Below, piece by piece: positions 1-61,184 of a stretch of 64,000 nt of DNA (positions are counted from its first letter, which is position 1; each line of letters begins with the position of its first letter). The notes under the pieces were generated by a model, which was given only the letters and a program-made list of their open reading frames with translations, was not told the origin of the DNA and did no database searches. The stretch is from the NCBI GenBank assembly GCA_964016885.1, contig OZ024742.1, forward strand, positions 313,720,001 through 313,784,000, written 5' to 3'. The stretch is from Eledone cirrhosa. Taxonomy: Eukaryota. A program made the position numbers and the translations under genes.

Positions 1-496
1 CGGCGTAGGCCGACACCACTTTCCGCAATCCCGGTTCCAAAGGGATGCCCTGCAACAACTCCAACTTCCGCAGTAGTGGCTCGAGAGTCAACACATACAG
101 AAGGGAGGAGAGAGGGCACCCTTGTTGGATGGACCGCGCGATTTTGAACGGCTCCGAGAGGTAACCGTTCACCTTGACCCTAGAGCAGATGCGGCTGCTG
201 TGCATAGCAGTGATCCAGCCCCTGAAAACGGGTCCGAAGCCTGCCGCCGCTAGCACCGCATCCAGGTAACCATGGTCAACCCCATCGAACGCCTTAGATT
301 GATCCAAGTTGATCAGAGCCCCACCAAAGCCGGGTTCGTTCCCAACCCTCTCTATGATGTATCGCATGAGGTGGAGGTTGTCATGGATGGACCTGGACGG
401 GATAGCGCATGTCTGCGCATCTCCCACCAGGTTGCCCACGACAAGCGCCAACCTCTTTGCTAGCACCTTGGCCAAAATCTGTAACTCTGTATTTAG
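1..496 (-). mobile_element. Tx1/L1-clade LINE RT fragment (second copy of 2795-3290, runs off window start)
   Basis: Identical to 2795-3290 at offset 2794. Encodes LNTELQILAKVLA...LDQSKAFD...QGCPLS...AYA. Confidence 0.9.
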
Positions 497-1157
497 ATAG
501 ATGGAGAGCCAGACAGACAGATATATAGATAGATGGAGAGCCAGACAGACAGATATATAGATAGATGGAGAGCTAGACAGACAGACAGACAGATATATAG
601 ATAGATGGAGAGACAGACAGACAGATATATAGATAGATGGAGAGCCAGACAGACAGACAGACAGATATATAGATAGATGGAGAGACAGACAGACAGACAG
701 ATATATAGATAGATGGAGAGCTAGACAGACAGACAGACATATAGATAGATGGAGAGACAGACAGACAGATATATAGATAGATGGAGAGCCAGACAGACAG
801 ACAGATATATAGATAGATGGAGAGACAGACAGACAGACAGATATATAGATAGATGGAGAGCTAGACAGACAGATATATAGATAGATGGAGAGCTAGACAG
901 ACAGATATATAGATAGATGGAGAGCTAGACAGACAGATATATAGATAGATGGAGAGCCAGACAGACAGACAGATATATAGATAGATGGAGAGACAGACAG
1001 ACAGATATATAGATAGATGGAGAGCCAGACAGACAGATATATAGATAGATGGAGAGCTAGACAGACAGACAGACAGACAGATAGATAGATGGAGAGCCAG
1101 ATAGACAGACATATAGATAGATGGAGAGCTAGACAGACATATAGATAGATAGATATA
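497..1157. repeat. Composite GATA/GACA satellite (~30-40 bp units AGATAGATGGAGAG(CT/CC)AGACAGACAGATATAT)
   Basis: Directly visible tandem units with a variable number of GACA repeats. Confidence 0.95.
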
Positions 1158-3290
1158 TTTCTTTTATTTGCCACTAGGGCATCAAAAGTGGGACAAGTAC
1201 AAAGGGGGGAGTTTACACAAAAAGGCGTCCTCAATAAGGAGGAGGCAATAACAAAATATAAAAATAAAATAAGATATAACAAAAAATAAAATTTTTAACA
1301 AAATCCTCAATAGAGAGGAGGCGCCTTGGGGGGTTGCACACACCCCCGAAAAAAGTGTGCAACCCTTCTCCTCAGGAGCACAGAGAAGGGGTGCTCCCTT
1401 GGTCTTTCATCTTCCTCACCTATAGTCTGATGTAGAGTGAAGGCCCATTCACACGGGCCATTCTCGCCACTTTCACCCATCTTTCATAGAAACGGCTGGG
1501 GTGCAGCACCTCTCTCTCCATCCTGATCCTTCTTCCGAAATGATATCGGAAGAAACGGACCAGTTGTTGGCCAGAGAGAAAGGTGCCCGACCTCAGTCCT
1601 TTCAGACGCGTCCACCATACAACCTCTTTCGCCATGGCTATTACGCACAGAAACACCGCCTCTGCTTCATCTTTGAAGGGGGGAGGCGGCTTGATCATTA
1701 CAATAGACTCGGTGGTCAACCGGATCGGTCCCACCCTTGACAGCAGTTGTTCGACATAGCCCCACAGATCGGCTACGCCCGAGCAGTGTACTAATGCGTG
1801 TGCAACGGTTTCCTCGTCGCACACGCATCTGGGACAGATCTTTTTGGCGGGGTCCCTACCCGGGCGCCCGTGTCTGTAGAGCCTTTCTCGAACGGGTAAA
1901 GCCCCTCGGTAGCACTGCCAGGCCAGGGACTTCTGGAAGTTGTCCATAGGTCCCGGGCTGAATGTCCTACCGAAAAGGCTGGCCAGTTCGTCCTCCTCCA
2001 TGTCTAGGGCTTCTCCGAGGGCGTCGTCGCACCTGCTGCGTACCAGCCCTCTATAGAATGTTGCGGTGGAGTCTCCACTGATAACCGGATCCGCCTGCCA
2101 GAGGGCGGTGAGCGCCTGGGCACACTCAGTGTGCCAGGCGCCCAGTTTTCTCGGTCTTTGCTTGACCCAGGATTGCAGCTCGGTGAGTGAGACGAGTCTG
2201 GGAAAGGTTCGTCTCACAAACGAGGCCCACACCGGTTGTCCGGTGAGGAATACGTAGAGGTGCCGTAGCCTTAATGCGTGTTTACGCATCATTAGCCACG
2301 GCATCCCCAGCCCTCCTTTCGAAGGGTGTTGACAGCAGATGGATCTCCTCACCATAGGAGCCCGCCTCTTCCAAAGGAATTGGAAGAGCGCGCGCTCCAT
2401 CTTGGTGAGGGTTTCCCTTGGGCAGGGCACTACAGTCAGGCGGTAGTAGATGACGGACGCTATGTAGGTGTTCGCCACCTCCGCCCGACCTTTCAGGGAT
2501 AGTTTGCAACTGGCCCACTTCTGGGTCAGTGCAAACACCCTGTTCGTAACCTCCGCCCAGTTTTTCTCCACTTGGAGGTCCGGTCCGAACCAGACCCCGA
2601 GCAACTTCACCGGGCCCTCCGTCCAGCGTCCGACGACGCCATCGGAGAGCATCGGTCTGCCCTCCACGTGCCGAGTTGCAAACCGATCGACTTGTCCCGG
2701 TTCAGCTTAGCCCCTGTGAACCTTTCGTACTCCTCCAGTAAGGTGCCGACCGCCTCGATTTCGGAGGCCGTCGACACCATTACTGTCACGTCATCGGCGT
2801 AGGCCGACACCACTTTCCGCAATCCCGGTTCCAAAGGGATGCCCTGCAACAACTCCAACTTCCGCAGTAGTGGCTCGAGAGTCAACACATACAGAAGGGA
2901 GGAGAGAGGGCACCCTTGTTGGATGGACCGCGCGATTTTGAACGGCTCCGAGAGGTAACCGTTCACCTTGACCCTAGAGCAGATGCGGCTGCTGTGCATA
3001 GCAGTGATCCAGCCCCTGAAAACGGGTCCGAAGCCTGCCGCCGCTAGCACCGCATCCAGGTAACCATGGTCAACCCCATCGAACGCCTTAGATTGATCCA
3101 AGTTGATCAGAGCCCCACCAAAGCCGGGTTCGTTCCCAACCCTCTCTATGATGTATCGCATGAGGTGGAGGTTGTCATGGATGGACCTGGACGGGATAGC
3201 GCATGTCTGCGCATCTCCCACCAGGTTGCCCACGACAAGCGCCAACCTCTTTGCTAGCACCTTGGCCAAAATCTGTAACTCTGTATTTAG
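1158..3290 (-). mobile_element. 5'-truncated Tx1/L1-clade non-LTR retrotransposon
   Basis: RT motifs, C-terminal CPRC..EETVAHALVHC zinc knuckle, and a 3' UTR ending GCCCTAGTGGCAAATAAAAGAAA directly on the satellite. Confidence 0.88.
1420..3290 (-). pseudogene. ORF2 remnant (RT plus C-terminal domain) with a 1-nt frameshift near 2660-2663
   Basis: ORFs 2607-3269 (AYADD) and 1420-2667 join as LGTWR-GRPM if one G is restored in a short G run. Confidence 0.85.
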
Positions 3291-4035
3291 ATAGATGGAG
3301 AGCCAGACAGACAGATATATAGATAGATGGAGAGCCAGACAGACAGATATATAGATAGATGGAGAGCTAGACAGACAGACAGACAGATATATAGATAGAT
3401 GGAGAGACAGACAGACAGATATATAGATAGATGGAGAGCCAGACAGACAGACAGACAGATATATAGATAGATGGAGAGACAGACAGACAGACAGATATAT
3501 AGATAGATGGAGAGCTAGACAGACAGACAGACATATAGATAGATGGAGAGACAGACAGACAGATATATAGATAGATGGAAAGCCAGACAGACAGACAGAT
3601 ATATAGATAGATGGAGAGACAGACAGACAGACAGATATATAGATAGATGGAGAGCTAGACAGACAGATATATAGATAGATGGAGAGCTAGACAGACAGAT
3701 ATATAGATAGATGGAGAGCTAGACAGACAGATATATAGATAGATGGAGAGCCAGACAGACAGACAGATATATAGATAGATGGAGAGACAGACAGACAGAT
3801 ATATAGATAGATGGAGAGCCAGACAGACAGATATATAGATAGATGGAGAGCTAGACAGACAGACAGACAGACAGATAGATAGATGGAGAGCCAGATAGAC
3901 AGACATATAGATAGATGGAGAGCTAGACAGACATATAGATAGATAGATAGATAGAGAAACAAACTGATAGATAGGTAAATTATATAGACAGACTTCAGAA
4001 AGATAGATGGAGAGACAGACAGACAGATAGATATC
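3291..4035. repeat. Composite GATA/GACA satellite (copy of 497-1157 plus degenerate extension)
   Basis: Same unit order as the first array; one substitution seen at ~3580. Confidence 0.95.
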
Positions 4036-7164: not shown

Positions 7165-7414
7165 TTGTTGTTAGCCCCAATGTAGTTAAGTTCTACTTAC
7201 TATTGTCATGTTTTATTAAAGTAGATAACTTTATTTACCCTTCAAACTTTACCTATCTTTCTAGGTCTTGGTAACAAGAAGTTCCCATCTTTGTTGTTAG
7301 CCTTGCATAGTTAGGTTCTACTTAATATTGTCATGTTTTACTCAAGTAGATAATTTTATTTACCCTTCAAACATTACCTATCTTTCTAGGTCTTGGTAAC
7401 AAGAAGTTTCCATT
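7165..7414 (+). repeat. 125-bp tandem duplication containing the 3' splice site and exon start
   Basis: TACCTATCTTTCTAG|GTCTTGGTAACAAGAAGTT occurs with AG at 7263-7264 and again at 7388-7389. Confidence 0.92.
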
Positions 7415-7559
7415 TCATCTACTTGTCATACATGGTTCCATAAAAATTAATTATACCAGTGAATTCAAACGAGAACATTTTTTGTCTTGGATGAAGAATG
7501 ACCCTAGTGGAGCTGTTGAAGGAATTGTCTGGCATTGTAATGATGGAGCATTATTTAAG
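7390..7559 (+). CDS. RLIG1: Internal exon of a C12orf29/RLIG1-like RNA ligase
   Basis: Bounded by ctag| and AAG|gtaagt. Reads (G)LGNKKFPFHLLVIHGSIKINYTSEFKREHFLSWMKNDPSGAVEGIVWHCNDGALFK, matching the GLGxKKxPxHLLxxHG and EGIVWHCxDG motifs recalled for vertebrate C12orf29. Confidence 0.88.
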
Positions 7560-9058: not shown

Positions 9059-12000
9059 ATGAATCTGCGAGCTACCAAGCACCCACGTGAAGCGCCAACC
9101 CAGAGACCCTCCCCTACGAGTGTCGACAAATGCCCAAAACTCCGAGTTGGTACCATCAATGTAGGCTCAATGAAAGGAAGAGCAGGAGAAATCGTAGAAA
9201 TGCTAGAGCGAAAGGAAGTTGATGTATGCTGTGTGCAAGAGACTAGATGGAGAGGAGGGTCTGCTAGAGTCCTTGTAGGAAAAAGCCAGTGCTACAAATT
9301 TTTCTGGGTGGGAAATGACGATGGGATGGGTGGTGTAGGTATACTATTAGCTGACAAGTGGGTAGATAAAGTAATCTCAGTGTACAGGGTAAATGCAAGA
9401 ATCATTAAACTCAGACTAGTCCTGAATAAGACAATTACCACAATAATATCAGCTTACGCACCCCAATCGGGGCTGCCAGACGAACTTAAGGATAGGTTTT
9501 ACGAGTCCCTAATACACACTACTGCTCTAACAGACGACAAGGACTTCCTAATCATTGCAGGAGATTTTAACGGACCCGTAGGTAAACACTGCGACGGCTT
9601 CAATAGAGTACATGGAGGCCATGGAGTTGGCACAAGGAATGAGGAAGGATTCAGACTTCTAGAATTCTGCGACGCCAATGACATGTCGATATGTAACACA
9701 AACTTTAAAAAACCCGACAACCACCTGATCACCTATAGATCAGGGGAGCACTCTAGTCAGTTAGATTTTATCCTCATCAGAGGACGTGACAGATGGACGG
9801 TCGTAAACACAAAAGCCTTCCCTAGTGAGGAATGTACATCCCAACATAGCTTAGTTGTCAGCGACCTCACGGTCAGAACTAGACGAGCCCTGAAACAGAG
9901 GCCAACCTGGAGAAGAAAGATCTGGAAGCTGAAAGTCCCCTCAACCAGTAACAGATTTAAAGATATTTTACTCAACGCCTACGACAGTAAAGAAGAACAG
10001 ATAGAGACATTTAACGTAGAAGAGAACTGGGAGTTCCTAAAAAATAACTTACTAGAGGCGACGGATGAGGTTTGTGGCTGGAGTAAGACCTCAAGCAGGA
10101 GGAGAGTGACTTGGTGGTGGAACAATAAGGTAGATGAAGCAGTCAAGGCCAAGAGACAGGCATGGAAAGAATGGAAGAACGGGGGGAGCAGGGTACATTA
10201 CATAGAGACCAAGAGGGAAGCTAGGCGACAAGTATACTTAGCTAGGAGGGAAGCAGAGGATAGAAAATTCAAGCATGTTTTACAACGTGAGGACCAGAAA
10301 CAGGAGGTATTCAAGATTGCGAGGCAGTGTGTCAGAGATAGTTGTGATGTCATTGGAGAGAAGTGTATCCGGAATGATAAAGGTGAGCTTGCCCTCACAA
10401 GTGCTGAGAAGAAAGATGCATGGAAGAGTCATTATGATAGATTACTAAATGAGGAGAATGCATGGGAAGAAGAGACCCTACCCCACGTAGACCCTATAGA
10501 GGGACCAGCAGTACAAGTCAGCGGCAGCGTAGTAAGTAAGGCAATCAGAGATATGAAGATAGGGAAGGCAACCGGTCCATCGGGTATAGCTGCCGAGATG
10601 CTGAAGGCATCTGGGTCTGTAGGTCACACTATAACCACACGTATCGTTAACCAGGTAATACTAGAGGGGGCCATACCAAAAGATTGGTGCAGTAGCATCA
10701 TTGTCAACTGCTACAAAGGTAAAGGCGATGCACTAGATAGAGGAAACTATAGAGGTATAAAGTTGATGGACCAGGTCATGAAAGTAACAGAAAGAGTTAT
10801 AGCACAGCTGATTAGGGACCGGGTGAATATAGACGAGATGCAATTTGGGTTTGTTCCAGGGAAAGGCACCACTGATGCGCTCTTCCTTGTGAGGCAATTA
10901 CAGGAAAAGTACCTAGCTAAAAGTAAGCCACTCTACTTGGCATTTGTCGACCTTGAGAAAGCCTTTGACAGAGTTCCACGTGCAGTAATCTGGTGGGCTC
11001 TTAGAAAACTAGGAGTAGATGAATGGCTTGTGAAAGCGGTACAAGCCATGTATAGGGGAGCAGTCAGCAAAGTTAGGATTGGCAATGAGTATAGCGAGGA
11101 ATTTAGCGTACAGGTTGGGGTCCACCAGGGCTCTGTTCTTAGCCCTCTCCTGTTCATCATAGTCCTGCAGGCAATAACGGAGGAGTTTAAGACCGGATGC
11201 CCATGGGAACTCCTGTATGCTGATGACCTCGCACTCATAGCTGAATCTATGGTAGAACTAGAGAATAAATTCCAAACCTGGAAGCAGGGACTAGAGAGAA
11301 AGGGCCTCAAAGTCAACATGACAAAGACTAAGGTCCTTATAAGTAGACGAGAAAACAGAACCCAGATCCCCTCAGGGAAATGGCCTTGCTCAGTATGTAG
11401 GAAAGGTGTAGGTAGGAACTCCATTCTTTGCCCCAAATGCAAACAATGGGTACACAAGAGATGTAGCGGGATCTCAGGAAGCTTAATTAAGAATGTAGGA
11501 TTCACATGCAGCAGCTGTGCTGAAACAGCAAGCAAACAGCCACAGGAAACAAGTACCACCAATCTCTGGGAGGGCCCTGTAGAAACAGTAGACAGCTTCT
11601 GCTACCTAGGTGACCGAATTAGCAACGGAGGTGGGTGCTCAGAAAGTACAATAACTAGGGTAAGAACGGGATGGAAGAAGTTTAGGGAACTACTACCACT
11701 GCTAGCTGCAAAAGGCTTCTCCCTCAGAATGAAAGGCAGACTGTATGATGCGTGTATCCGAACAGCGATGTTGCATGGTAGTGAGACCTGGGCGCTGAAG
11801 GTGGAAGACTTACGTAGATTAGAGAGAAACGAAGCCTGCATGCTCCGATGGATGTGTAACAGTAATATACGTGAACGACAAAGCATAAATGAATTGAGAG
11901 AGAGACTGAGCATAAGAGGAATCAAATGCTGCGTGCAGGAGAGGCGGTTACGCTGGTATGGACATGCGATGCGTATGAAGGATGACAGCTGCATAAAAAG

Positions 12001-12178
12001 GTGCAGAGCACTAGAAGTTGATGGAAACCGCGGAGTGGGGAGACCCAAGATGACTTGGGATGAGGTGATAAAAGCCGACCTTACCCAACTACACCTCTCA
12101 AAGTCAATGACACACGACCGTGACTTCTGGCGTCACGCAGTAATACAGGGTACCCGACCTCCCATGGGTACATGCTGA
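9059..12178 (+). CDS. RTE polyprotein, 1039 aa: AP endonuclease, reverse transcriptase and PHD-type Zn finger
   Basis: [36 protein letters not shown]4HC3 finger, RLRWYGH, GRPK; no stops. Confidence 0.96.
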   Translation: MNLRATKHPREAPTQRPSPTSVDKCPKLRVGTINVGSMKGRAGEIVEMLERKEVDVCCVQETRWRGGSARVLVGKSQCYKFFWVGNDDGMGGVGILLADKWVDKVISVYRVNARIIKLRLVLNKTITTIISAYAPQSGLPDELKDRFYESLIHTTALTDDKDFLIIAGDFNGPVGKHCDGFNRVHGGHGVGTRNEEGFRLLEFCDANDMSICNTNFKKPDNHLITYRSGEHSSQLDFILIRGRDRWTVVNTKAFPSEECTSQHSLVVSDLTVRTRRALKQRPTWRRKIWKLKVPSTSNRFKDILLNAYDSKEEQIETFNVEENWEFLKNNLLEATDEVCGWSKTSSRRRVTWWWNNKVDEAVKAKRQAWKEWKNGGSRVHYIETKREARRQVYLARREAEDRKFKHVLQREDQKQEVFKIARQCVRDSCDVIGEKCIRNDKGELALTSAEKKDAWKSHYDRLLNEENAWEEETLPHVDPIEGPAVQVSGSVVSKAIRDMKIGKATGPSGIAAEMLKASGSVGHTITTRIVNQVILEGAIPKDWCSSIIVNCYKGKGDALDRGNYRGIKLMDQVMKVTERVIAQLIRDRVNIDEMQFGFVPGKGTTDALFLVRQLQEKYLAKSKPLYLAFVDLEKAFDRVPRAVIWWALRKLGVDEWLVKAVQAMYRGAVSKVRIGNEYSEEFSVQVGVHQGSVLSPLLFIIVLQAITEEFKTGCPWELLYADDLALIAESMVELENKFQTWKQGLERKGLKVNMTKTKVLISRRENRTQIPSGKWPCSVCRKGVGRNSILCPKCKQWVHKRCSGISGSLIKNVGFTCSSCAETASKQPQETSTTNLWEGPVETVDSFCYLGDRISNGGGCSESTITRVRTGWKKFRELLPLLAAKGFSLRMKGRLYDACIRTAMLHGSETWALKVEDLRRLERNEACMLRWMCNSNIRERQSINELRERLSIRGIKCCVQERRLRWYGHAMRMKDDSCIKRCRALEVDGNRGVGRPKMTWDEVIKADLTQLHLSKSMTHDRDFWRHAVIQGTRPPMGTC

Positions 12179-12802: not shown

Positions 12803-13141
12803 GGAAGCACATGGCTTAGTGGTTAGAGCATTGGACTTGCAATCGAAAGGTTGTGAGTTCAATTCTCAGACCGGGTGATGTGCTGGTTCCTTGAGCAAGG
12901 CACTTTATTTCACATTGCTTCAGTTTACTCAGCTGTAGAAATGAGATGATAGGGACTGGGGTCCTTGTCATTCCACTGCAAAGTGGTCGTGGAGGTGCCA
13001 CGGCAAAAAAGCACCCAGCACTCACTGTAAATGAGGTTGGTGTTAGGAAGGGCATCCAGCTGTAGAAATCAAGCCAGAATCAGTTCCCGTCCCACCCTTG
13101 CAAGCAGGGAAAAGCGGACGTAAAATGATGATGATGATGAT
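12803..13141 (+). mobile_element. SINE family C (tRNA head, CORE-like domain, RTE-A-derived tail, (GAT)n)
   Basis: TGGCTTAGTGG A box, GAGTTCAATTC B box, CCTTGAGCAAGGCACTT..CAGCTGTAGAAATG core; tail matches 12210-12365. Confidence 0.88.
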
Positions 13142-22595: not shown

Positions 22596-22736
22596 TCGTA
22601 ACTAGCTGTTGAAACAGCAAGAGCTCGACCATCGGGTTTCCGACTCTTTCATATTACCACACTCTACTACCCTAAGTATCGAGTACTCTGGTGAGTAATG
22701 GTCTGACAGGTTTTTACTGCATCCATTTTGATTTGT
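22596..22736 (+). mobile_element. Older Naiad-related pLTR 3' end
   Basis: TAGCTGTTGAAACAGC..GAGCTC and CACTCTACTACCCTAAGTATCGAGTACTCTGGTG align with 54934-55040. Confidence 0.75.
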
Positions 22737-39624: not shown

Positions 39625-39669
<45 letters not shown>

Positions 39670-39672
<3 letters not shown>

Positions 39673-39866
39673 ACAAAGGAATTGTGGTAAGGAACCAGAT
39701 GGACCATACCGCACCAGAGTACTCAATACTTAGGGTAGTAGAGTGGGAAATAGGAAAAAGTATGACCCCGACGGCAGAGCTCAAGCCGTTTCGACGGCTA
39801 TTTCTGGACCGAAATAGCCGTCGAAATGGCTTGAGCTCTGCCGTCGGGGTCATACTTTTTCCTATA
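39670..39866 (-). mobile_element. Naiad-related pLTR end with 55-bp fold-back (39750-39804 / 39811-39865)
   Basis: Homologous to 54925-55064; 6-nt loop TGGACC; TA flanks. Confidence 0.88.
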
Positions 39867-43170: not shown

Positions 43171-43228
43171 ATAGAGGGTGTGGTAAGATACCAGGTGGAC
43201 CATAATGCACCAGAGTACTCAATACTTT
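43171..43228 (-). mobile_element. Naiad-related pLTR extreme 3' fragment
   Basis: Reverse complement of AAGTATTGAGTACT..GGTCCACC..TACCAC. Confidence 0.75.
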
Positions 43229-51177: not shown

Positions 51178-51306
51178 ATGTACATATATATATATGGTAT
51201 GTATACATATATATACATATGTATGTATACATACATATGTATGTATATATACACATATGTATGTATACATGTATATATGTATGTATACATGTATATATAT
51301 ATATGT

Positions 51307-51354
<48 letters not shown>

Positions 51355-51389
51355 GTATATATATGTATATATATATGTATATATATATG

Positions 51390-51540
<151 letters not shown>

Positions 51541-51566
51541 ACATGTATATATATATATATATATGT

Positions 51567-51612
<46 letters not shown>

Positions 51613-51615
<3 letters not shown>

Positions 51616-53956
51616 CGAACCGTGATATTGTCGGGGAGAAGTGTGTACTTAACGATGATGGCATACTTGCCATCACCGACGCTGATAAGAAGGTAGCTTG
51701 GAAGTGTCACTACGAAAGGCTTCTAAATGAGGAGAACAAATGGGAGAAAGACAGTCTCCCCCAGATCGATCCAATAGAGGGACCAGCAGTGTTAGTTGAA
51801 GGTAGTATAATAAGTAAGGCAATCAAAGATATGAAGACGGGTAAGGCGGCTGGGCCTTCGGAAATAGTTGCTGAGATGCTGAAGGCATCTGGTTCGGTGG
51901 GACACACCATGGTCACCCGGATAGTTAACCAAGTCGTACAGAATGGGGTTGTTCCGAAGGAATGGCATAGCAGCATCATCGTTAACTGCTATAAGGGAAA
52001 AGGAGATGCCCTAGATAGGAGTAACTATAGAGGCATTAAATTAATCGACCAGGTCATGAAGGTCACGGAAAAAGTAATAGCGCAACTAATCAGAGAGAGA
52101 ATTGATCTAGATGAAATGCAGTTCGGGTTTGTGTCAGGCAAAAGTACCACAGACGCTCTTTTCATTGTACGACAACTACAGGAGAAGTACCTAGCTAAAA
52201 GTAAACCCCTATACTTAGCTTTTGTCGACTTGGAGAAAGCCTTCGACAGAGTCCCCCGTTCCATTATCTGGTGGTCTCTTAGAAAACTAGGTGTTGACGA
52301 ATGGCTTGTGAGAGCTATACAAGCCATGTATAAAGAAACAGTCAGTAAGGTTAGAATTAACAACGAATATAGTGAAGAGTTTAGCGTAAAAGTTGGTGTC
52401 CATCAGGGCTCTGTACTTAGCCCCCTACTATTTATTATTGCCCTTCAGGCTATAACAGAGGAGTTCAAGACCGGCTGCCCATGGGAACTCCTATACGCAG
52501 ATGATCTAACGCTCATAGCTGAATCAATGACCGAACTAGAGAAGAAATTCCAAACGTGGAAGCACGGCCTAGAATCAAAAGGCCTTAAAATTAACCTGGC
52601 TAAGACTAAAGTTCTAGTTTGTAGGAAAGAAAATAAGGCGGCGGTCCCATCGGGGAAATGGCCATGCTCAGTGTGTAGGAAAGGCGTAAGTAGAAACTCC
52701 ATTTTATGTCCCAAATGCAAAGTATGGGTGCATAAAAGATGTAGTGGGATCACAGGTAAGCTAACTAAGAACATAGATTTTACATGTGGCCGGTGCTCTG
52801 GTGCAATAAGTAGCAGCAAGTGCCCACAAAATACTAGCTCCTTCAACTGCGCAGAGGGTTCTATAGAAATAGTGGACAGCTTCCGTTATCTGGGTGACAA
52901 AATCAGCAGTGGGGGAGGGTGCTCTGAAAGTACAGTAGCTAGAGTCAGAACTGGATGGAAAAAGTTCAGAGAGCTTATACCACTATTAGCCGCTAGAGGG
53001 TTCTCCCTAAAAATGAAAGGCAGGTTATACGATGCCTGCATACGAACAGCAATGCTGCATGGCAGTGAGACCTGGGCATTGTGTGCAGAGGATATACGCA
53101 GACTAGAGAGGAACGAAGCTTGCATGCTCCGCTGGATGTGCAATAGTAATATACGTGAACGGCAAAGCATAAACGAACTAAGGAAAAAATTAGAAATAAG
53201 AGGGATCAGATGTTGTTTACTCGAGAGAAGGCTACGTTGGTACGGTCACGTGATGCGCATGAAAGACGACAGCTGTATAACAAAGTGCAGGGCAATAAAG
53301 ATAGACGGTAGCCACGGAGTAGGCAGACCCAGAAAAACATGGGACGAGCTGATAAATTCCGACCTCACACGCTTACACCTCTCCAAGACAATGTCACTGG
53401 ACCGAGACCTTTGGCGGTACTCAGTAATAGAGAAGACCCGCCTTACCTAAATACAAAGTAAAAACCTACTACAGTCAGTAGGCACCTCTATCAAAACACA
53501 CCCCCGTCCCACCACCTCCACCCCACCCACACCGCCCCTTTCAATGTAAAGTTATGTTGGTCCCACAACATCCAGGCCGAAACAAATGAGATCGTGTAGG
53601 TGTCACGACAAAAAACACACAGTCCACGCTGTAAATGTGGCCGTGTAGGCAACACGGTAAAAACCTCCCAGCCCCACACTGTAAATGTGGTTGGTGTTAG
53701 GAAGGGCATCCAGCTGTAGAAAACCCGCCAGACAGTCCACGCTGTAATGTGGCCGTGTAGGCAACACGGTAAAAACCTCCCAGCCCCACACTGTAAATGT
53801 GGTTGGTGTTAGGAAGGGCATCCAACTGTAGAAAACCCGCCAGACAGTCCTATGCGAGCAAGACAACCACTCTTGCCTCAAGTGGGAAAACCCCCGTCCA
53901 AACCCATGCAAGCGTGGAACACGGACGCTAAACCTGATGATGATGATGATGATGAT
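51613..53956 (+). mobile_element. 5'-truncated RTE subfamily B; RT and PHD frame open to stop at 53450
   Basis: [22 protein letters not shown]4HC3; no endonuclease domain; (GAT)n tail. Confidence 0.94.
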
Positions 53957-53975
53957 ATATATATATATATGTGTA

Positions 53976-55064
53976 TACCCCCACCACCCCCTCCCCTAGT
54001 CTATGATAGATTTGGCGGACTCCGCCCTTTATAGCAGTTGGCTTAGACCCCGGATACTTGCCCCCTTTTTCCGACCGCTCCCACTATTCTCTGTGCCCTC
54101 TATATTTCTTAGTGGCACTTATGCCTTATTTTTTCGTTTCAGTATTTCTTGCTTCGCTTTTCTTCTGGGCGGGGTGGATTCTGAATTTATTTCTCCGTAT
54201 TCTACCTTTATTTCGTACGAACTTCCATGTAGCTTGTTTTAGATCTTTTAGAGTTAGCATTAGTATATATTTTTCTCAGGACTCAGAATTATTATCTCGT
54301 ACAAGTTCACTTTGCTGCACTGGGTCGTTGCTGGCCCGGGATGGATACCTTTATTGTTTATTTCGTGGTAGTCTCTTTAGTATTTTGGCCCCTTTTGTTG
54401 ACCCATCACCGTATCATTTACGTACTTATACCTCTTAAAAGGGTCCTTGCCTATGCCGTCCCACCTAGTTCTTTTACTTATTTCGTTATTTCTTTATTTA
54501 TTTATTTCTTTACTTCTTTCTTTCTTTCTTTATTTTATTCTAGCCTAACAATAGCCTGAGACCTAGGTCGTAGAATTTAATTTACTTTACTTTTTTCTTT
54601 ACACTTATTTGCTTTTCTTCACTCTCAGTATTTTTTCTTTCCTATATATTTCTACCCCCCATTGTTCTACCTACCGTTCCGACTTCCTCCCCCTTCCCTG
54701 TATCTTCTTTGACCTCATGCCCAGCTGTAGCTGGCACTACCAACGCTTGATTGGGTCTACTCCACCCCCTCCCCTCTTTCTCCTACTGGCAGGTTTAGCC
54801 ACCATCTCCCCTACTAATTTGCAACCACAGAATTACTACTGATTTTTGACAATCAATTTGACCATATATGGAATTACCCCTTGAGAAGATCGGCTATTTA
54901 AATACCAGGATAAATTTTCATTTAGTCCAGAATTAGCCGTCGAAACGGCTTGAGCTCAGCTGTCGGGGTCTTACTGGTTCCTATTACCCACTCTACTACC
55001 TCAAGTATTGAGTACTTTGGTGCGTTATGGTCCACCCGGTTCCCTACCACATTTCCTTCGTTAT
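53976..55064 (+). repeat. 5' pseudo-LTR
   Basis: Direct repeat of 57512-58617 with a few substitutions and indels. Confidence 0.95.
54876..54969 (+). ncRNA. Type I hammerhead ribozyme, U3-A8 core variant; predicted cleavage after C54964
   Basis: ACCCC-TTGAGAA-GA(T)CGGCTA..TAGCCGTC-GAAA-CGGC-TTGAGCTCA-GCTG-TC^GGGGT. Confidence 0.8.
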
Positions 55065-55154
55065 CTAGCTCCTACTCCTGTAGTAGAGCACTTTCCGACC
55101 CTACCACGCCGTATCCAGACTTTTCCGCTAAGCTCAATTCATTTCACCCGCACC

Positions 55155-57308
55155 ATGCGAAAACACAACATTGACTTCTCTACCAAGAACATCCCAATCC
55201 CACCGAAATAACTTTACCTTCGGATGCTCACGCAAAAAATCGATCTATTTGCGAAAAGACTTAGATGGAGAACTTTTTTCTATCACAGATATTGCGACAA
55301 CCAAGACTTCGGCACCAAGGAGAGATTCGGATTTATTACCTACAAATCTCCGCCCCTGAACCCCTTGCTCGCACCCTTCGAGAATGACCTCTTCCAACTG
55401 GTCAAGAACATTAAATTTAAACCCAGACACAACCGATTCCTACAAAAACTCCATAGCAACTTAACAGAGTATGATAACACAAATGACATCATGGTGCATT
55501 CGGATAAAACTGGGAACCTATACTTTGTCAACCCTGACAGATACCACACACTGATCAGGAGCAGCCTAAACTCCACCTATAAAAAGGCCAACCACTCTTG
55601 CATCGAGGACATAAATCGAGATGGACAACAAATCACCTCCAGCCTCGGGGTCGCCGACCGCACGGAACCTCTAGACCCACGGACACCATACTTCACACTG
55701 AAGGACCATAAATCCGATTTTGACCGTAAACCCTCTATCAGGCTTATTAACCCAACGAAGTCCGACATAGGGAGAATCAGCAAAAAAATCCTAGACCGCG
55801 TGATACCAAAACTCAAGCAACACACCCGACTTAGCCTATGGATCAACACCCAGGAAGTAATCTCCTGGTTCAGCAATATGGAGGATAAACGAGAAACTAA
55901 ATTCATACAGTTCGACATAGAGAGCTACTATGCTTCAATCACCTTACCGCTACTTACTGCCGCCTTGGACTTCGCCGAAACACTTGTGCCCATCACCGAC
56001 CAGGAAAGAAAAATCATCCTCCACGCCAGGAAGACAGTCTTACTCTTTGACGACTCTAAATGGATAAAAAGAGCTCCCGACTCACCCTTCGACGTCAGCA
56101 TGGGCGCCACAGATTCGGCGGAGGTCACAGATCTTATAGGATTATTCCTAATAGCCAAACTCACTGATATGTTTCCTGCATTCGGTGGTGGATTGTACCG
56201 TGATGATGGGCTCCTTACCCTTAAAGGGTACAACCGCAGTAGTACAGATCGGGTCCGGAAACAATTAATCAGATTCTTCCGCGACTGGGGATTTAAAATA
56301 ACCCTACAAACGTCCCTGACCCGAGTAAACTTCCTGGACGTGACCCTCGACCTCGAAAACGACCTGTACTACCCATACAGGAAACCTAATGACAATCTGC
56401 ACTACATCCACCGCCGATCAAACCATCCTAGGAACATCACAAACAACCTGGTCAAAAACATCTCCCTCCGCATATCCCGTTTGTCAGCTAATGAGCGGAT
56501 ATTCGATGAACATGCGCCTTATTACAACCAGGCCCTCAAGCAGAGTGGTTTCCGGGAGGAAATATCCTACTGTCCAGCTCCCATTAGCGGAACCAGCAGG
56601 AGACACCGCCGCTCACGCAATGTAACATGGTTCAATCCTCCCCACAACGCAGAGGTGACTACTCCCATCGGGAAACTATTCTTTAGGCTCATTGAAAAAC
56701 ACTTCCCATTACAACACCGCTACCACAACATAATTAACAAAAATACCATCAAACTCTCTTACAGCACTACACCAAACTTCGCACAAAACATCGTCTCCTC
56801 TAACAACAAAAAACTCAACCCCGATGGCAGAAATAACCTAAATAGCAGTGGAGAACCGACCAGGAGGTGTAACTGCCCGGATAGATCTATTTGCCCACTC
56901 GACAATAGATGCAGAGACCGTAATGTGATCTACCAGTGCAACGTGACGACGGATACCTCCAACAAAGCCTATATAGGACTTACCGCATGTGACTTCAAGA
57001 CCCGGCTATACCAACATAGACATACCTTCCGAAATCCGGCCCGGCGTCACGCCACTACACTTTCGGGCCACATATGGGACCTCAAGGACAACAACATCAC
57101 CTATGATCTCACTTGGAGATTACTGTCCAGAGCCAATTCTTACACGGGAGGACGCCGTCCGTGCAATTTATGCTCGGAGGAAACTTTACAAATGCTGTTT
57201 TCGACGGACCAACTCCTAAACAAGAAAGATGAACTGGTTACTGCATGTAAACATAGATTGCCTAGGACTTACCTCGCCCTCAAACCCCATAATGACCCGG
57301 GGGGGTAG
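55155..57308 (+). CDS. Naiad-type PLE protein (RT, Zn linker, GIY-YIG endonuclease); in-frame TAA at 55209-55211, 694 aa open from 55224
   Basis: FSTKNIPIP..KIDLFAKRLRWR, FDIESYY, FDVSMGA, YRDD, NFLDV, WFNPP, CNC..CPL..C, VIY..YIG, CNLC. Confidence 0.9.
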
Positions 57309-57511
57309 ACTAGGGCTATAACACCCCACCTGCCGATTTTGCAATGGGTAACCCCTGCTTGCCAAGGAAGACGTAAGATCTTTGTATTCTTTTATCGCTT
57401 CCTTTATTTCCTTCCCCCCTCTCTCCTTTGTCCTTCTACCCCAGCTCTTCTCCTTTGTCGGCGTCTTTTCTCGCCCACCCGAGGCTGCCCTTTGGCCCCA
57501 TGTAGCCTTAG

Positions 57512-58617
57512 TACCCCCACCACCCCCTCCCCTAGTCTATGATAGATTTGGCGGACTCCGCCCTTTATAGCAGTTGGCTTAGACCCCGGATACTTGCCCC
57601 CTTTTTCCGACCGCTCCCACTATTCTCTGTGCCCTCTATATTTCTTAGTGGCACTTATGCCTTATTTTTTCGTTTCAGTATTTCTTGCTTCGCTTTTCTT
57701 CTGGGCGGGGTGGATTCTGAATTTATTTCTCCGTATTCTACCTTTATTTCGTACGAACTTCCATGTAGCTTGTTTTAGATCTTTTAGAGTTAGCATTAGT
57801 ATATATTTTTCTCGGGACTCAGAATTATTATCTCGTACAAGTTCACTTTGCTGCACTGGGTCGTTGCTGGCCCGGGATGGATACCTTTATTGTTTATTTC
57901 GTGGTAGTCTCTTTAGTATTTTGGCCCCTTTTGTTGACCCGTCACCATATCATTTACGTACTTATACCTCTTAAAGGGTCCTTGCCTATGCCGTCCCACC
58001 TAGTTCTTTTACTTATTTCGTTATTTCTTTATTTCTTTCTTTCTTTACTTCTTTCTTTTTTTCTTTATTTTATTCTAGCCTAACAATAGCCTGAGACCTA
58101 GGTCGTAGAATTTAATTTACTTTACTTTTTTCTTTACACTTATTTGCTTTTCTTCACTCTCAGTATTTTTTCTTTCCTATAGATTTCTACCCCCCATTGT
58201 TCTACCTACCGTTCCGACTTCCTCCCCCTCCCCCTCCCCCTCCCCCTCCCCTGTATCTTCTTTGACCTCATGCCCAGCTGTAGCTGGCACTACCAACGCT
58301 TGATTGGGTCTACTCCACCCCCTCCCCTCTTTCTCCTACTGGCAGGTTTAGCCACCATCTCCCCTACTAATTTGCAACCACAGAATTACTACTGATTTTT
58401 GACAATCACTTTGACCATATATGGAATTACCCCTTGAGAAGATCGGCTATTTAAATACCAGGATAAATTTTCATTTAGTCCAGAATTAGCCGTCGAAACG
58501 GCTTGAGCTCAGCTGTCGGGGTCTTACTGGTTCCTATTACCCACTCTACTACCTCAAGTATTGAGTACTTTGGTGCGTTATGGTCCACCCGGTTCCCTAC
58601 CACATTTCCTTCGTTAT
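57512..58617 (+). repeat. 3' pseudo-LTR
   Basis: Direct repeat of 53976-55064; expanded (CCCCT)n at ~58221-58251. Confidence 0.95.
58429..58522 (+). ncRNA. Second copy of the U3-A8 hammerhead; predicted cleavage after C58517
   Basis: Identical to 54876-54969. Confidence 0.8.
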
Positions 58618-59236: not shown

Positions 59237-59239
<3 letters not shown>

Positions 59240-59429
59240 GGAACCAGTAAGACCCCGACAGCTGAGCTCAAGCCGTTTCGACGGCTAATTCAGTCCAGAA
59301 TTAACTGTCGAAACGGCTTGAGCTCAGCTGTCGGGGTCTTACTGGTTCCTATTACCCACTCTACTACCTCAAGTATTGTTGTACTTTGGTGCGTTATGGT
59401 CCACCTGGTTCCTTACCACATTTCCTTCG

Positions 59430-59433
<4 letters not shown>
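59237..59433 (+). mobile_element. Naiad pLTR end with 55-bp fold-back (59237-59291 / 59298-59352)
   Basis: Right part matches 54924-55064; left part is its reverse complement; loop AGTCCA. Confidence 0.92.
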
Positions 59434-59461
<28 letters not shown>

Positions 59462-60262: not shown

Positions 60263-60980
60263 ATCTTCTATTAGATTCAATTGTTATTAAAAAGGTATTC
60301 AAACTGGAATTTTGCTATATCTATTTTTGCATGTTTAACCCTTTAGCATTTAAACCGGCCATATCTGGCCAAAATTCTCTCACCTCTTATTGTTCAAACT
60401 GGCTATAACATTACGGTAGTGTTCTTAAAATAAATAACATCATAATCTCCTAGATTTGATATTATGTGAGATAATTATGAAAGATAAAGCCTTTACTGTG
60501 AAAATACAAAAGTAGAGTTATGTAAATGATATAGAGTTATGTAAATGATATAGGATTAAGTAGAGCTCTTATGGTTTAGTTTCGGAGTGAATTTCTCTAT
60601 AAAACATTTCTCCATTTCTAGTCAGTACTTTGGATCATTCCTTGAACATTTATAAAAAGGGAATATTTTGAATTTGTTGTTCCTACAAATTTCTAAATGT
60701 TATCATAGTGGGATTTTTCTCTTGGCTCTGGTTTTTATATCTGTTGTTTGTATACCTTGACTTGTTCACACAAAGGATTACTGGTCTCACCAATATAATT
60801 CTCTTTACAGCTGAGACCGACAATACAATGTATCAGATTTTCTGGTTTTTAATTTATTAAAGGATTATCTCAGAACCAGTAGAAACAATATTTCATAAAA
60901 ATTTTAATGGATATATTATTGAGAAGTGGAAAAAGCATTGCATTGCCTTTCGCCCATTTTTATTTTTTTTTGTTTTTCAG

Positions 60981-61184
60981 CTTCACCGGTTTCATCTGTG
61001 CACTTCACTTCCATGGCCTGTACCAAAACCAACATTATCAAATTTAAGACCTGTTACCATCAATCTCAATGTTGAGCTTTTGGATGAGACTGACCGAGAA
61101 AACAGCACACTGCATCAGCTTTTGGATTACAATGGACATAATTTTAGTTCACTGGCAGAATTGAACTCTACTCTGTTCACATGA
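60981..61184 (+). CDS. RLIG1: Terminal coding exon of the C12orf29/RLIG1-like RNA ligase
   Basis: Strong acceptor, then LHRFHLCTSLPWPVPKPTLSNLRPVTINLNVELLDETDRENSTLHQLLDYNGHNFSSLAELNSTLFT*. Matches the recalled HRxHL..WP.P....RPV.IN motif. Confidence 0.85.
   Translation, partial: LHRFHLCTSLPWPVPKPTLSNLRPVTINLNVELLDETDRENSTLHQLLDYNGHNFSSLAELNSTLFT

What the first reader, a model, noticed from the sequence alone, without database searches (positions are those of the whole stretch)
54965..58517. Twin sense-strand ribozymes could excise a 3,553-nt unit-length element RNA from the host intron
Seen: both hammerheads are on the strand of the ligase pre-mRNA and bracket the whole ORF, the first cutting 190 nt before ATG 55155. 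The second lies ~2.5 kb before the terminal exon. Known: hammerhead cleavage leaves 5'-OH and 2',3'-cyclic phosphate ends that RtcB-type ligases can circularise, as for retrozymes. Inference: promoter-independent expression by host read-through, possibly as circular RNA, and the host intron must be spliced across a cut transcript.
Basis: inference. Interest (0 to 1): 0.75.

Follow-up and report, generated by a model that had tools for sequence, protein, structure and literature searches.

The report
Broken Penelope retrotransposon with twin hammerheads
A jumping gene of the Penelope type, with a premature stop in its only gene, sits in the last intron of an RNA-ligase gene and carries a predicted self-cutting RNA at each end; this layout is already described for such elements, and the many sister copies suggest, without proving it, that the family is likely copied from a one-unit, possibly circular RNA.

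Summary
Two identical type I hammerhead motifs (U3-A8 core) lie on the sense strand of the last RLIG1 intron. Predicted cuts follow 54964 and 58517, 3,553 nt apart, 190 nt before ATG 55155 and 2.46 kb before the last exon. They are the two pseudo-LTRs of a Hydra-clade Penelope-like retrotransposon, and cut-then-circularise is the model Cervera and de la Peña proposed in 2014. No ORF-bearing daughter of it was found, the fold is disfavoured in longer context, and RLIG1 cannot join hammerhead ends. Sister copies add indirect support at family level: every classifiable end lies 20 or 100 nt downstream of the cut, and the redundant ends of one insertion share 143 of 148 informative alleles. Against this, tandem arrays show duplication patterns, and a subfamily with a mismatched core reached about 1,500 copies. 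No run is on record as RNA, so cutting, circles and any host effect are untested. The scan noted the same layout before in another octopus genome (e1-10342995). Verdict: new member of a known kind.

The parts
53976..58617 (+). Whole Penelope-like (Hydra-clade) insertion: 5' partial unit + one full unit + 100-nt end, in a (TA)n tract
53976..55064 (+). 5' pseudo-LTR (5'-truncated partial unit)
   Evidence: aligns to 57512-58617 with 8 substitutions in 1,088 columns plus indels
57512..58617 (+). 3' pseudo-LTR; element end at cut+100
54870..54981 (+). Hammerhead 1, type I: stem I 54876-54880/54965-54969 (distal 54870-54873/54978-54981), core UUGAGAA 54881-54887, G10.1 54888-C11.1 54941, stem II 54891-54896/54934-54939 with a 37-nt loop region, GAAA 54942-54945, stem III to 54963 with palindromic loop, predicted cut after C54964
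58423..58534 (+). Hammerhead 2, identical to hammerhead 1; predicted cut after C58517
54965..58517 (+). Predicted cut-to-cut unit RNA, 3,553 nt
   Evidence: existence as RNA not shown
54935..54950 (+). Competing hairpin that would sequester the GAAA box
   Evidence: sequence; pair probability 0.24 in the isolated motif, 0.91 with 100 nt of upstream RNA
55155..57308 (+). ORF for telomerase-like RT plus C-terminal GIY-YIG endonuclease, 717 codons, interrupted at codon 19; open from ATG 55224 (694 aa)
55209..55211 (+). Premature TAA (codon 19)
   Evidence: 29 of 29 sister loci and 32 of 32 other insertions read through here
58538..58617 (+). 80-nt optional 'tail' between the two family end points (cut+20, cut+100)
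7390..7559 (+). Penultimate RLIG1 (C12orf29-like) exon, followed by GTAAGT
60981..61184 (+). Coding part of the terminal RLIG1 exon
59237..59436 (.). Separate two-armed stub of the same family; holds only the 3' half of the hammerhead

Best explanation
This is a disabled copy of a young Hydra-clade Penelope-like retrotransposon in the last RLIG1 intron, whose two predicted hammerheads are the two copies of its pseudo-LTR; the family is likely reverse-transcribed from a one-unit RNA joined end to end, while at this locus cutting is probably slow and of little effect on the host gene. Steps: (1) shown: pLTR-ORF-pLTR anatomy, hammerhead motif in each pLTR, (TA)n target, stop at codon 19. (2) inferred: a transcript that spans two pLTRs, from a pLTR promoter or by read-through, is cut late, helped by pairing of the two palindromic loop-III sequences or by the element protein. 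(3) inferred: the 5'-OH and cyclic-phosphate ends are joined by RtcB, or the RT jumps from end to end; not by RLIG1. (4) shown at DNA level, inferred as RT starts: copying begins 20 or 100 nt downstream of the cut, one start for each side of the target break, and runs back across the junction, which regenerates the two pLTRs from one template. (5) inferred: this copy arose that way, then decayed and has been an unproductive source.
For: Anatomy and motif. TERT is the top fold match (E 1.1e-8); Hydra motifs read directly against the clade definition. Ends: 24 of 24 two-armed insertions with both ends visible have one end at cut+20 and one at cut+100; 4 one-armed ones end at +100; 5 of 33 could not be classed. 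A linear cut-to-cut RNA would have these starts 20 or 100 nt from its 5' end, so copying must cross the cut. One template: in 22 of 33 insertions (single unit with an adjacent same-strand overlap) the two copies agree at 143 non-majority alleles, 29 of them seen in no other insertion, and disagree at 5 shared and 45 private sites; the window copy carries its two rare tail alleles in both pLTRs. Slow cutting: stem I probability falls from 0.98 to 0.03 with 100 nt upstream and is 0.53 with 100 nt on both sides at 37 C; the stem III piece forms a dimer at -26.3 against -4.9 kcal/mol as monomer; tested metazoan PLE hammerheads are weak or protein-assisted. Decay: 8 of 9 private ORF changes are non-synonymous; no daughter among loci that share single rare alleles (2 with the TAA, 10 of 11 other loci with the 57761 allele read).
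Against: No RNA-level evidence at all. No significant covariation among 45 hammerhead copies (93.8% of 937 cells paired, but 1 pair with a two-sided change; 416 of 500 shuffles as high). Arrays A and B show alternating ABAB alleles and array C a nested pattern, which points to DNA-level duplication or a dimer template and offers another route to matching ends. A sister subfamily with C3 opposite A8 has 1,499 exact core matches and a second Hydra family has a U4-to-A core, so cutting may be dispensable. In the lizard element PAc, hammerhead mutants did not affect insertion in vitro and no RNA-seq reads ended at the cut. Folding predictions ignore tertiary contacts and kinetics. The sample of 33 insertions is biased to young, top-scoring copies.
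Confidence: 0.6

Rival explanations
1. Cleavage is not part of copying: the RT uses long uncut transcripts from a pLTR promoter, the hammerhead fold serves mainly as the landmark for the two RT starts, and matching ends come from DNA-level tandem duplication or gene conversion.
For: PAc data: uncut RNA is the main substrate in vitro. The short end (cut+20) falls at the base of stem I. Subfamilies with altered cores amplified. ABAB and nested alleles in arrays; 7 of 33 insertions have two or more units.
Against: Single-unit insertions also match at 143 of 148 informative sites, and their 5' partial units reach 1-2.5 kb upstream of the motif, into the ORF, which a transcript starting in one pLTR could not template. 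Core positions stay conserved while N7 varies freely, as expected if catalysis is selected.
Confidence: 0.27
2. One reading: RLIG1 read-through is cut efficiently at both sites, releasing a 3,553-nt RNA or circle and forcing splicing across a severed intron, with an effect on RLIG1 output.
For: Orientation, spacing and intact cores; the isolated motif folds as a three-way junction; stems are long enough for monomer activity; fast intronic ribozymes lower splicing (Fong 2009 as cited in PMC10919898 and PMC2995048); ribozyme cleavage can promote cap-independent translation (PMC13725137 passages).
Against: The released RNA would carry a stop at codon 19 and an upstream ATG at 55027; at most one 140-nt stub could be its daughter; fold disfavoured in context; slower hammerheads in introns leave splicing intact (Dye 2006 as cited in PMC2995048); at the mammalian rate of 3,800 nt/min quoted there the second site has about 40 s before the exon is made (inference; the animal's rate is unknown).
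Confidence: 0.13

Closest known systems
Hydra clade of Penelope-like elements, incl. Hydra-1_Obim (Craig et al. 2021, PMC8557442; section 11, passages and supplement part 2 read)
   Same: RT with C-terminal GIY-YIG, DKT, CxCX5C linker, CxxC and CxH, no CCHH, (TA)n target, type I hammerhead near the 3' end.
   Different: RWR instead of RWK; unit 3.5 kb against under 3 kb for most; clear pLTRs and arrays; all Hydra hammerheads listed in File S2 have a C3-G8 core and short loops, whereas this one has U3-A8, a 37-nt loop II region and a 6-nt palindrome in loop III. By eye the N-terminus differs from Hydra-1_Obim (no alignment run).
PLE hammerheads and the circular-RNA model (Cervera and de la Pena 2014, PMC4209133; parts 1-3 of 4 read)
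   Same: Motifs in both pLTRs about 3 kb apart, U3-A8 variant, unpaired base at the start of stem II, palindromic loop III, proposal of self-cleavage, ligation to a circle and more-than-unit copying.
   Different: This motif has a full 5-6 bp stem III instead of a minimal one; that paper gives no allele-level test of a one-unit template.
PAc, Poseidon element of Anolis (PMC11167929; passages and section 3 part 2 read)
   Same: Two adjacent RT starts that define an optional tail; AT-rich target; hammerhead at the pLTR-ORF junction.
   Different: Tail 80 nt here against 30-40; here the starts lie in the 5' UTR, 20 and 100 nt after the cut; different clade.
Metazoan non-LTR retrozymes (PMC7229834 passages; bioRxiv 10.64898/2026.07.22.740005 part 1 of 5 and passages)
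   Same: Type I hammerheads one unit apart; RtcB circularises such ends in vitro.
   Different: Retrozymes are 170-400 nt and non-coding, with circles shown in vivo; this unit is 3.5 kb and coding, and no circle is shown.
Intronic self-cleaving ribozymes such as CPEB3 (PMC10919898 passages)
   Same: Sense ribozyme upstream of an exon that could race with splicing.
   Different: CPEB3 is a conserved single-copy HDV-like ribozyme; this is a recent transposon insertion with no sign of selection for a host role.

Membership tests
Penelope-like elements (EN+) | Telomerase-like RT | tested here: met
   Model pLDDT 77.8; best PDB fold matches are TERTs; YRDDG motif in sequence. Pfam and PDB sequence searches gave no hit.
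Penelope-like elements (EN+) | GIY-YIG endonuclease | tested here: inconclusive
   VIY...YIG motif and beta-beta-alpha layout at the C-terminus; no profile hit; domain not searched on its own.
Penelope-like elements (EN+) | Partial tandem with pLTRs, 5' truncation, inverted copies, optional tail | tested here: met
Hydra clade | C-terminal EN; RWK, DKT, CxCX5C, CxxC, CxH; no CCHH | tested here: met
   Read from the translation against the definition: RWR (conservative change), SDKT, CNCPDRSIC, CNLC, CKH.
Hydra clade | (TA)n insertion | tested here: met
Hydra clade | Placement inside the clade on an RT tree | not tested
   No tree built; motif match to the supplement alignment by eye only.
Type I hammerhead ribozyme | Core boxes, three helices, NUH site | tested here: met
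   U3-A8 variant core, GAAA, GUC; GAAA positions 43-45 of 45, while loop positions vary. Rfam models do not hit.
Type I hammerhead ribozyme | Covariation of helices | tested here: inconclusive
   No excess over shuffles within the family; a family at 54% protein identity has different stems at the same place but an altered core.
Type I hammerhead ribozyme | Self-cleavage | not testable with these tools
   Needs an in vitro assay or raw RNA reads.
Retrozymes | Small non-coding unit | tested here: not met
   3.5-kb unit with an RT-EN ORF.
Retrozymes | Circular RNA in vivo | not testable with these tools
   No raw RNA reads were offered for this stretch.

The most novel reading that the evidence does not exclude
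Autonomous, protein-coding Penelope elements replicate through a 3.5-kb ribozyme-cut circular RNA: twin hammerheads pair through their palindromic loops so that they cut only once a full unit has been made, and the RT enters the circle at two fixed sites, one for each side of the DNA break. The genomic copies of this family would then be an allele-level record of that cycle, and sense intronic copies could be launched by host transcription without harming splicing.
Probability: 0.4. Interest if true: 0.65.

Novelty: new member of a known kind. Interest (0 to 1): 0.33.

Why it matters
What the hammerhead does in Penelope-like elements is an open question: a 2014 paper proposed cut-and-circle, a 2024 in vitro study found cleavage dispensable, and a 2021 survey calls the function unclear. 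This family is a good test bed: thousands of young copies, many intact ORFs, two fixed end points, and natural core variants. This particular locus is a poor representative because its ORF is broken, but its private alleles make it one of the few places where a circle junction can be told from a genomic tandem by a 224-nt read.

Tried and rejected
Rfam at gathering score and at E up to 10: no hammerhead hit. Pfam on the ORF and on 13 relatives, and PDB by sequence: nothing relevant. My first guess of the Naiad clade (recalled) was wrong: Naiads have an N-terminal endonuclease. Sequencing runs: no RNA holder listed; only contigs could be laid, which cannot show starts, ends, strand or level. 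One run, X4 (type not on record), has a 1,410-nt contig that begins to fit at 60975, next to the predicted splice acceptor, with 1,104 letters that fit elsewhere, and no cover on 60583-60938; this looks like spliced RLIG1 mRNA but the run type and whether that animal carries the insertion are unknown, so it is not used. Tandem arrays as proof of rolling-circle copying: rejected because of ABAB and nested allele patterns. Covariation: the first structure string was mis-registered and was redone; no significant signal. Rows dropped before that count: L102 and L117 (no 3' half), L101 (same as L100); L058 and L065 were added with short 3' ends; the rows were picked by patterns that fix the 5' core and part of stem II, so conservation there is circular. 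Daughters of this copy: the two other TAA loci and 10 loci with the 57761 allele lack its other rare alleles (one locus, on C1635, was not read). Own promoter: a GC-box/TATA-like stretch at about 54014-54035 is not kept in that form in 86 sister loci (0 matches); inconclusive. Intron inside the pLTR: many acceptor-like sites, one donor-like site at 57373, no GT-AG joint among those listed. Host ligase as the circularising enzyme: rejected, RLIG1 joins 5'-phosphate to 3'-OH (PMC9931718 abstract). Fong et al. 2009 was not held and is cited second-hand. A search for U3A8/C3G8 kinetics found no paper. In one search, 18 of 25 'shared differences' were artefacts (16 alignment overruns at 55065, 2 from separate stubs); one search repeats the count without them.
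Full report
Observation. The stretch 53976-58617 is one mobile-element insertion bounded by 1.09-kb direct repeats, 53976-55064 and 57512-58617, which differ by 8 substitutions in 1,088 aligned columns plus indels. Each repeat holds the same motif: stem I, core UUGAGAA (54881-54887), stem II with a long loop, GAAA (54942-54945), stem III and GUC ending at 54964; the second copy is 3,553 nt further on. A descriptor scan finds these two and nothing else on either strand of the window; shuffled windows give 0.15 per 64 kb and the shuffled unit 0 of 400. Rfam does not detect the motif, and its folding energy is ordinary (z -0.35). The host gene is RLIG1, the C12orf29-type RNA ligase: exons 7390-7559 and 60981-61184 match consecutive parts of PF17720 on the + strand, with a GT-AG intron of 53.4 kb. 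The animal is probably an octopus; that label comes from an earlier scan note and from recalled repeat types, not from a test here.

The frame from ATG 55155 stops at codon 19 (TAA, 55209-55211). All 29 sister loci from the first search and all 32 other insertions read through there. An ATG at 55224 opens 694 codons, but loses the conserved N-terminus. Of 16 alleles private to this copy against 32 other insertions, 9 lie in the ORF and 8 are non-synonymous, as expected for neutral decay.

What the element is. The protein has at least 779 relatives among the candidates scored, at about 40-54% identity; its model (pLDDT 77.8) matches telomerase RT best. It carries the features that define the Hydra clade of Penelope-like elements: C-terminal GIY-YIG, DKT, CxCX5C linker, CxxC and CxH, no CCHH, (TA)n target, with RWR for RWK (one search read against PMC8557442 section 11). 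That paper's supplement lists Hydra-1_Obim from Octopus bimaculoides with a canonical hammerhead; all Hydra motifs listed there have a C3-G8 core. The family is young and large: 2,924 exact matches to the window-type 5' core, 2,886 with other bases at N7, 1,499 with C3, 21,375 matches to the common tail haplotype, and many intact ORFs.

Is the motif a ribozyme? [quoted passage not shown] In 45 copies from several subfamilies N7 takes all four bases, the GAAA box is kept in 43-45 of 45, and loop positions vary. The helices pair in 93.8% of 937 cells but show no covariation beyond shuffles. A second family at 54% protein identity has a hammerhead-like motif with different stems at the same place and the same two-end layout, but its core reads CAGAAGA. 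So the scaffold is real and of one origin with PLE hammerheads; activity is inferred. In longer RNA the fold is predicted to lose: stem I probability 0.98 alone, 0.03 with 100 nt upstream, 0.53 with 100 nt on both sides, 0 with 200 nt on both sides, with a hairpin over the GAAA box as the main rival in most contexts. The stem III piece dimerises through its palindrome (-26.3 against -4.9 kcal/mol). Tested metazoan PLE hammerheads cut poorly, as dimers, or only with the element protein.

What the sister copies say about the template. In 33 insertions (the window's and 32 fetched) the outer ends fall 20 or 100 nt after the cut: all 24 two-armed insertions with both ends visible have one of each, 4 one-armed ones end at +100, and 5 could not be classed. 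This matches the two RT starts and optional tail shown for the lizard element PAc. A linear cut-to-cut RNA has these starts next to its 5' end, so it cannot be the template unless it is circular or the RT jumps end to end; the alternative is uncut RNA. Among 22 single-unit insertions with an adjacent same-strand overlap (11 of 33 left out: 7 arrays, 4 without such an overlap), the two copies agree at 143 non-majority alleles, 29 of them unique to that insertion, and differ at 5 sites where both alleles occur elsewhere and 45 private sites. Redundant ends are therefore made alike again and again, which a one-unit template does automatically. But arrays of up to 4.5 units show alternating or nested alleles (A: GCGC, CACA, CTCT; B: CTCT; C1=C2), so DNA-level duplication or dimer templates also act, and the C3 subfamily spread with a mismatched core (ORF pieces mostly 87-96% identical). 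The circle is the simplest reading, not a proven one.

This locus. Its tail haplotype occurs in its own two pLTRs and in one 140-nt stub elsewhere. The other two loci with the same TAA and 10 loci that share the 57761 allele lack its other rare alleles. So no ORF-bearing daughter is visible in this assembly. The other family pieces in the intron lack the 5' core. RLIG1 joins 5'-phosphate to 3'-OH ends (abstract of PMC9931718), so the host gene's product does not fit hammerhead ends; RtcB does circularise retrozyme monomers in vitro (PMC7229834 passages). For host splicing the literature, seen second-hand, cuts both ways: slow hammerheads in introns leave splicing intact, fast ribozymes abort it (passages of PMC2995048 and PMC10919898). 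Retrozymes are under-represented in Xenopus introns (preprint passages), a hint that active sense copies cost something. Other PLEs carry a promoter in the pLTR; none could be shown here. Expression, cutting and allele-specific effects remain untested because no raw RNA reads were available.

Comparison and novelty. The function of PLE hammerheads is called unclear in PMC8557442, and PMC11167929 found cleavage dispensable in vitro. Searches for octopus, Penelope and hammerhead, for Penelope-like, hammerhead, pLTR and Naiad and for Penelope, hammerhead, circular RNA and rolling (listing only) did not show a paper on this family or an in vivo circle of an autonomous PLE; most subscription journals are outside the library. 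The scan itself has noted the same layout in another octopus genome and two fixed ends in retrozyme families of this genome; these are unchecked AI notes and are not counted as support.

Verdict. Real, well-formed, and of a known kind. The locus is an ordinary, broken intronic insertion. The family is a useful system for an open question, and the allele counts give modest new support for a one-unit template. Interest 0.33; 0.65 if the circle were shown.

Noticed in passing
G000 genome-wide; L111-L125, L166-L175: A sister subfamily with core CUGAGAA (C3 opposite A8) has 1,499 exact matches. C3 goes mostly with G at N7, so it may use a shifted register (C3-G8 with N7 missing and an extra A), or it may not cut.
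   Followed up: partly
L126-L145: A second Hydra family (54% protein identity, 713-codon frames) has a hammerhead-like motif with a U4-to-A core about 160 nt before its ATG and ends about 25 and 110 nt after the predicted cut.
   Followed up: partly
window 59237-59436, 39667-39865, 22600-22703, 43179-43227: Four short stubs of the same superfamily in the same intron, two of them two-armed; truncation often falls inside stem II-III of the hammerhead, and such stubs far outnumber full copies.
   Followed up: partly
L031-L033 (G000:C1 near 91.49 Mb): At the junction of the two arms of a 4.5-unit array lies a run of dozens of 55-bp tandem copies of an ORF fragment (window 56678-56735), suggesting RT slippage or later expansion.
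   Followed up: no
window 55284, 55812, 56236, 56947, 57262: Five of the 16 alleles private to this copy are G/C transversions, an unusual share.
   Followed up: no
L157: The 5' partial unit and the full unit differ at two linked sites (57687, 57701) whose alleles both occur in other insertions: a possible switch between two templates or a conversion tract.
   Followed up: no
window 7560-60980: The last RLIG1 intron is 53.4 kb and filled with retroelement remains, including an intact-looking 1,039-aa endonuclease-RT ORF at 9059-12178 on the sense strand and a near copy at 51219-53450 just upstream of this element.
   Followed up: no
window 1420-3161: Two minus-strand ORFs of another LINE-type element, with a 2.8-kb repeat of window 1-500 at 2800-3300.
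   Followed up: no
window 12812-12869: tRNA-like Rfam hit (34.8 bits), probably the head of a SINE.
   Followed up: no
window 54000-55069 and 57445-58346: The pyrimidine-rich pLTR holds many acceptor-like AG sites on the host's sense strand, which could trap RLIG1 splicing independently of any ribozyme.
   Followed up: no
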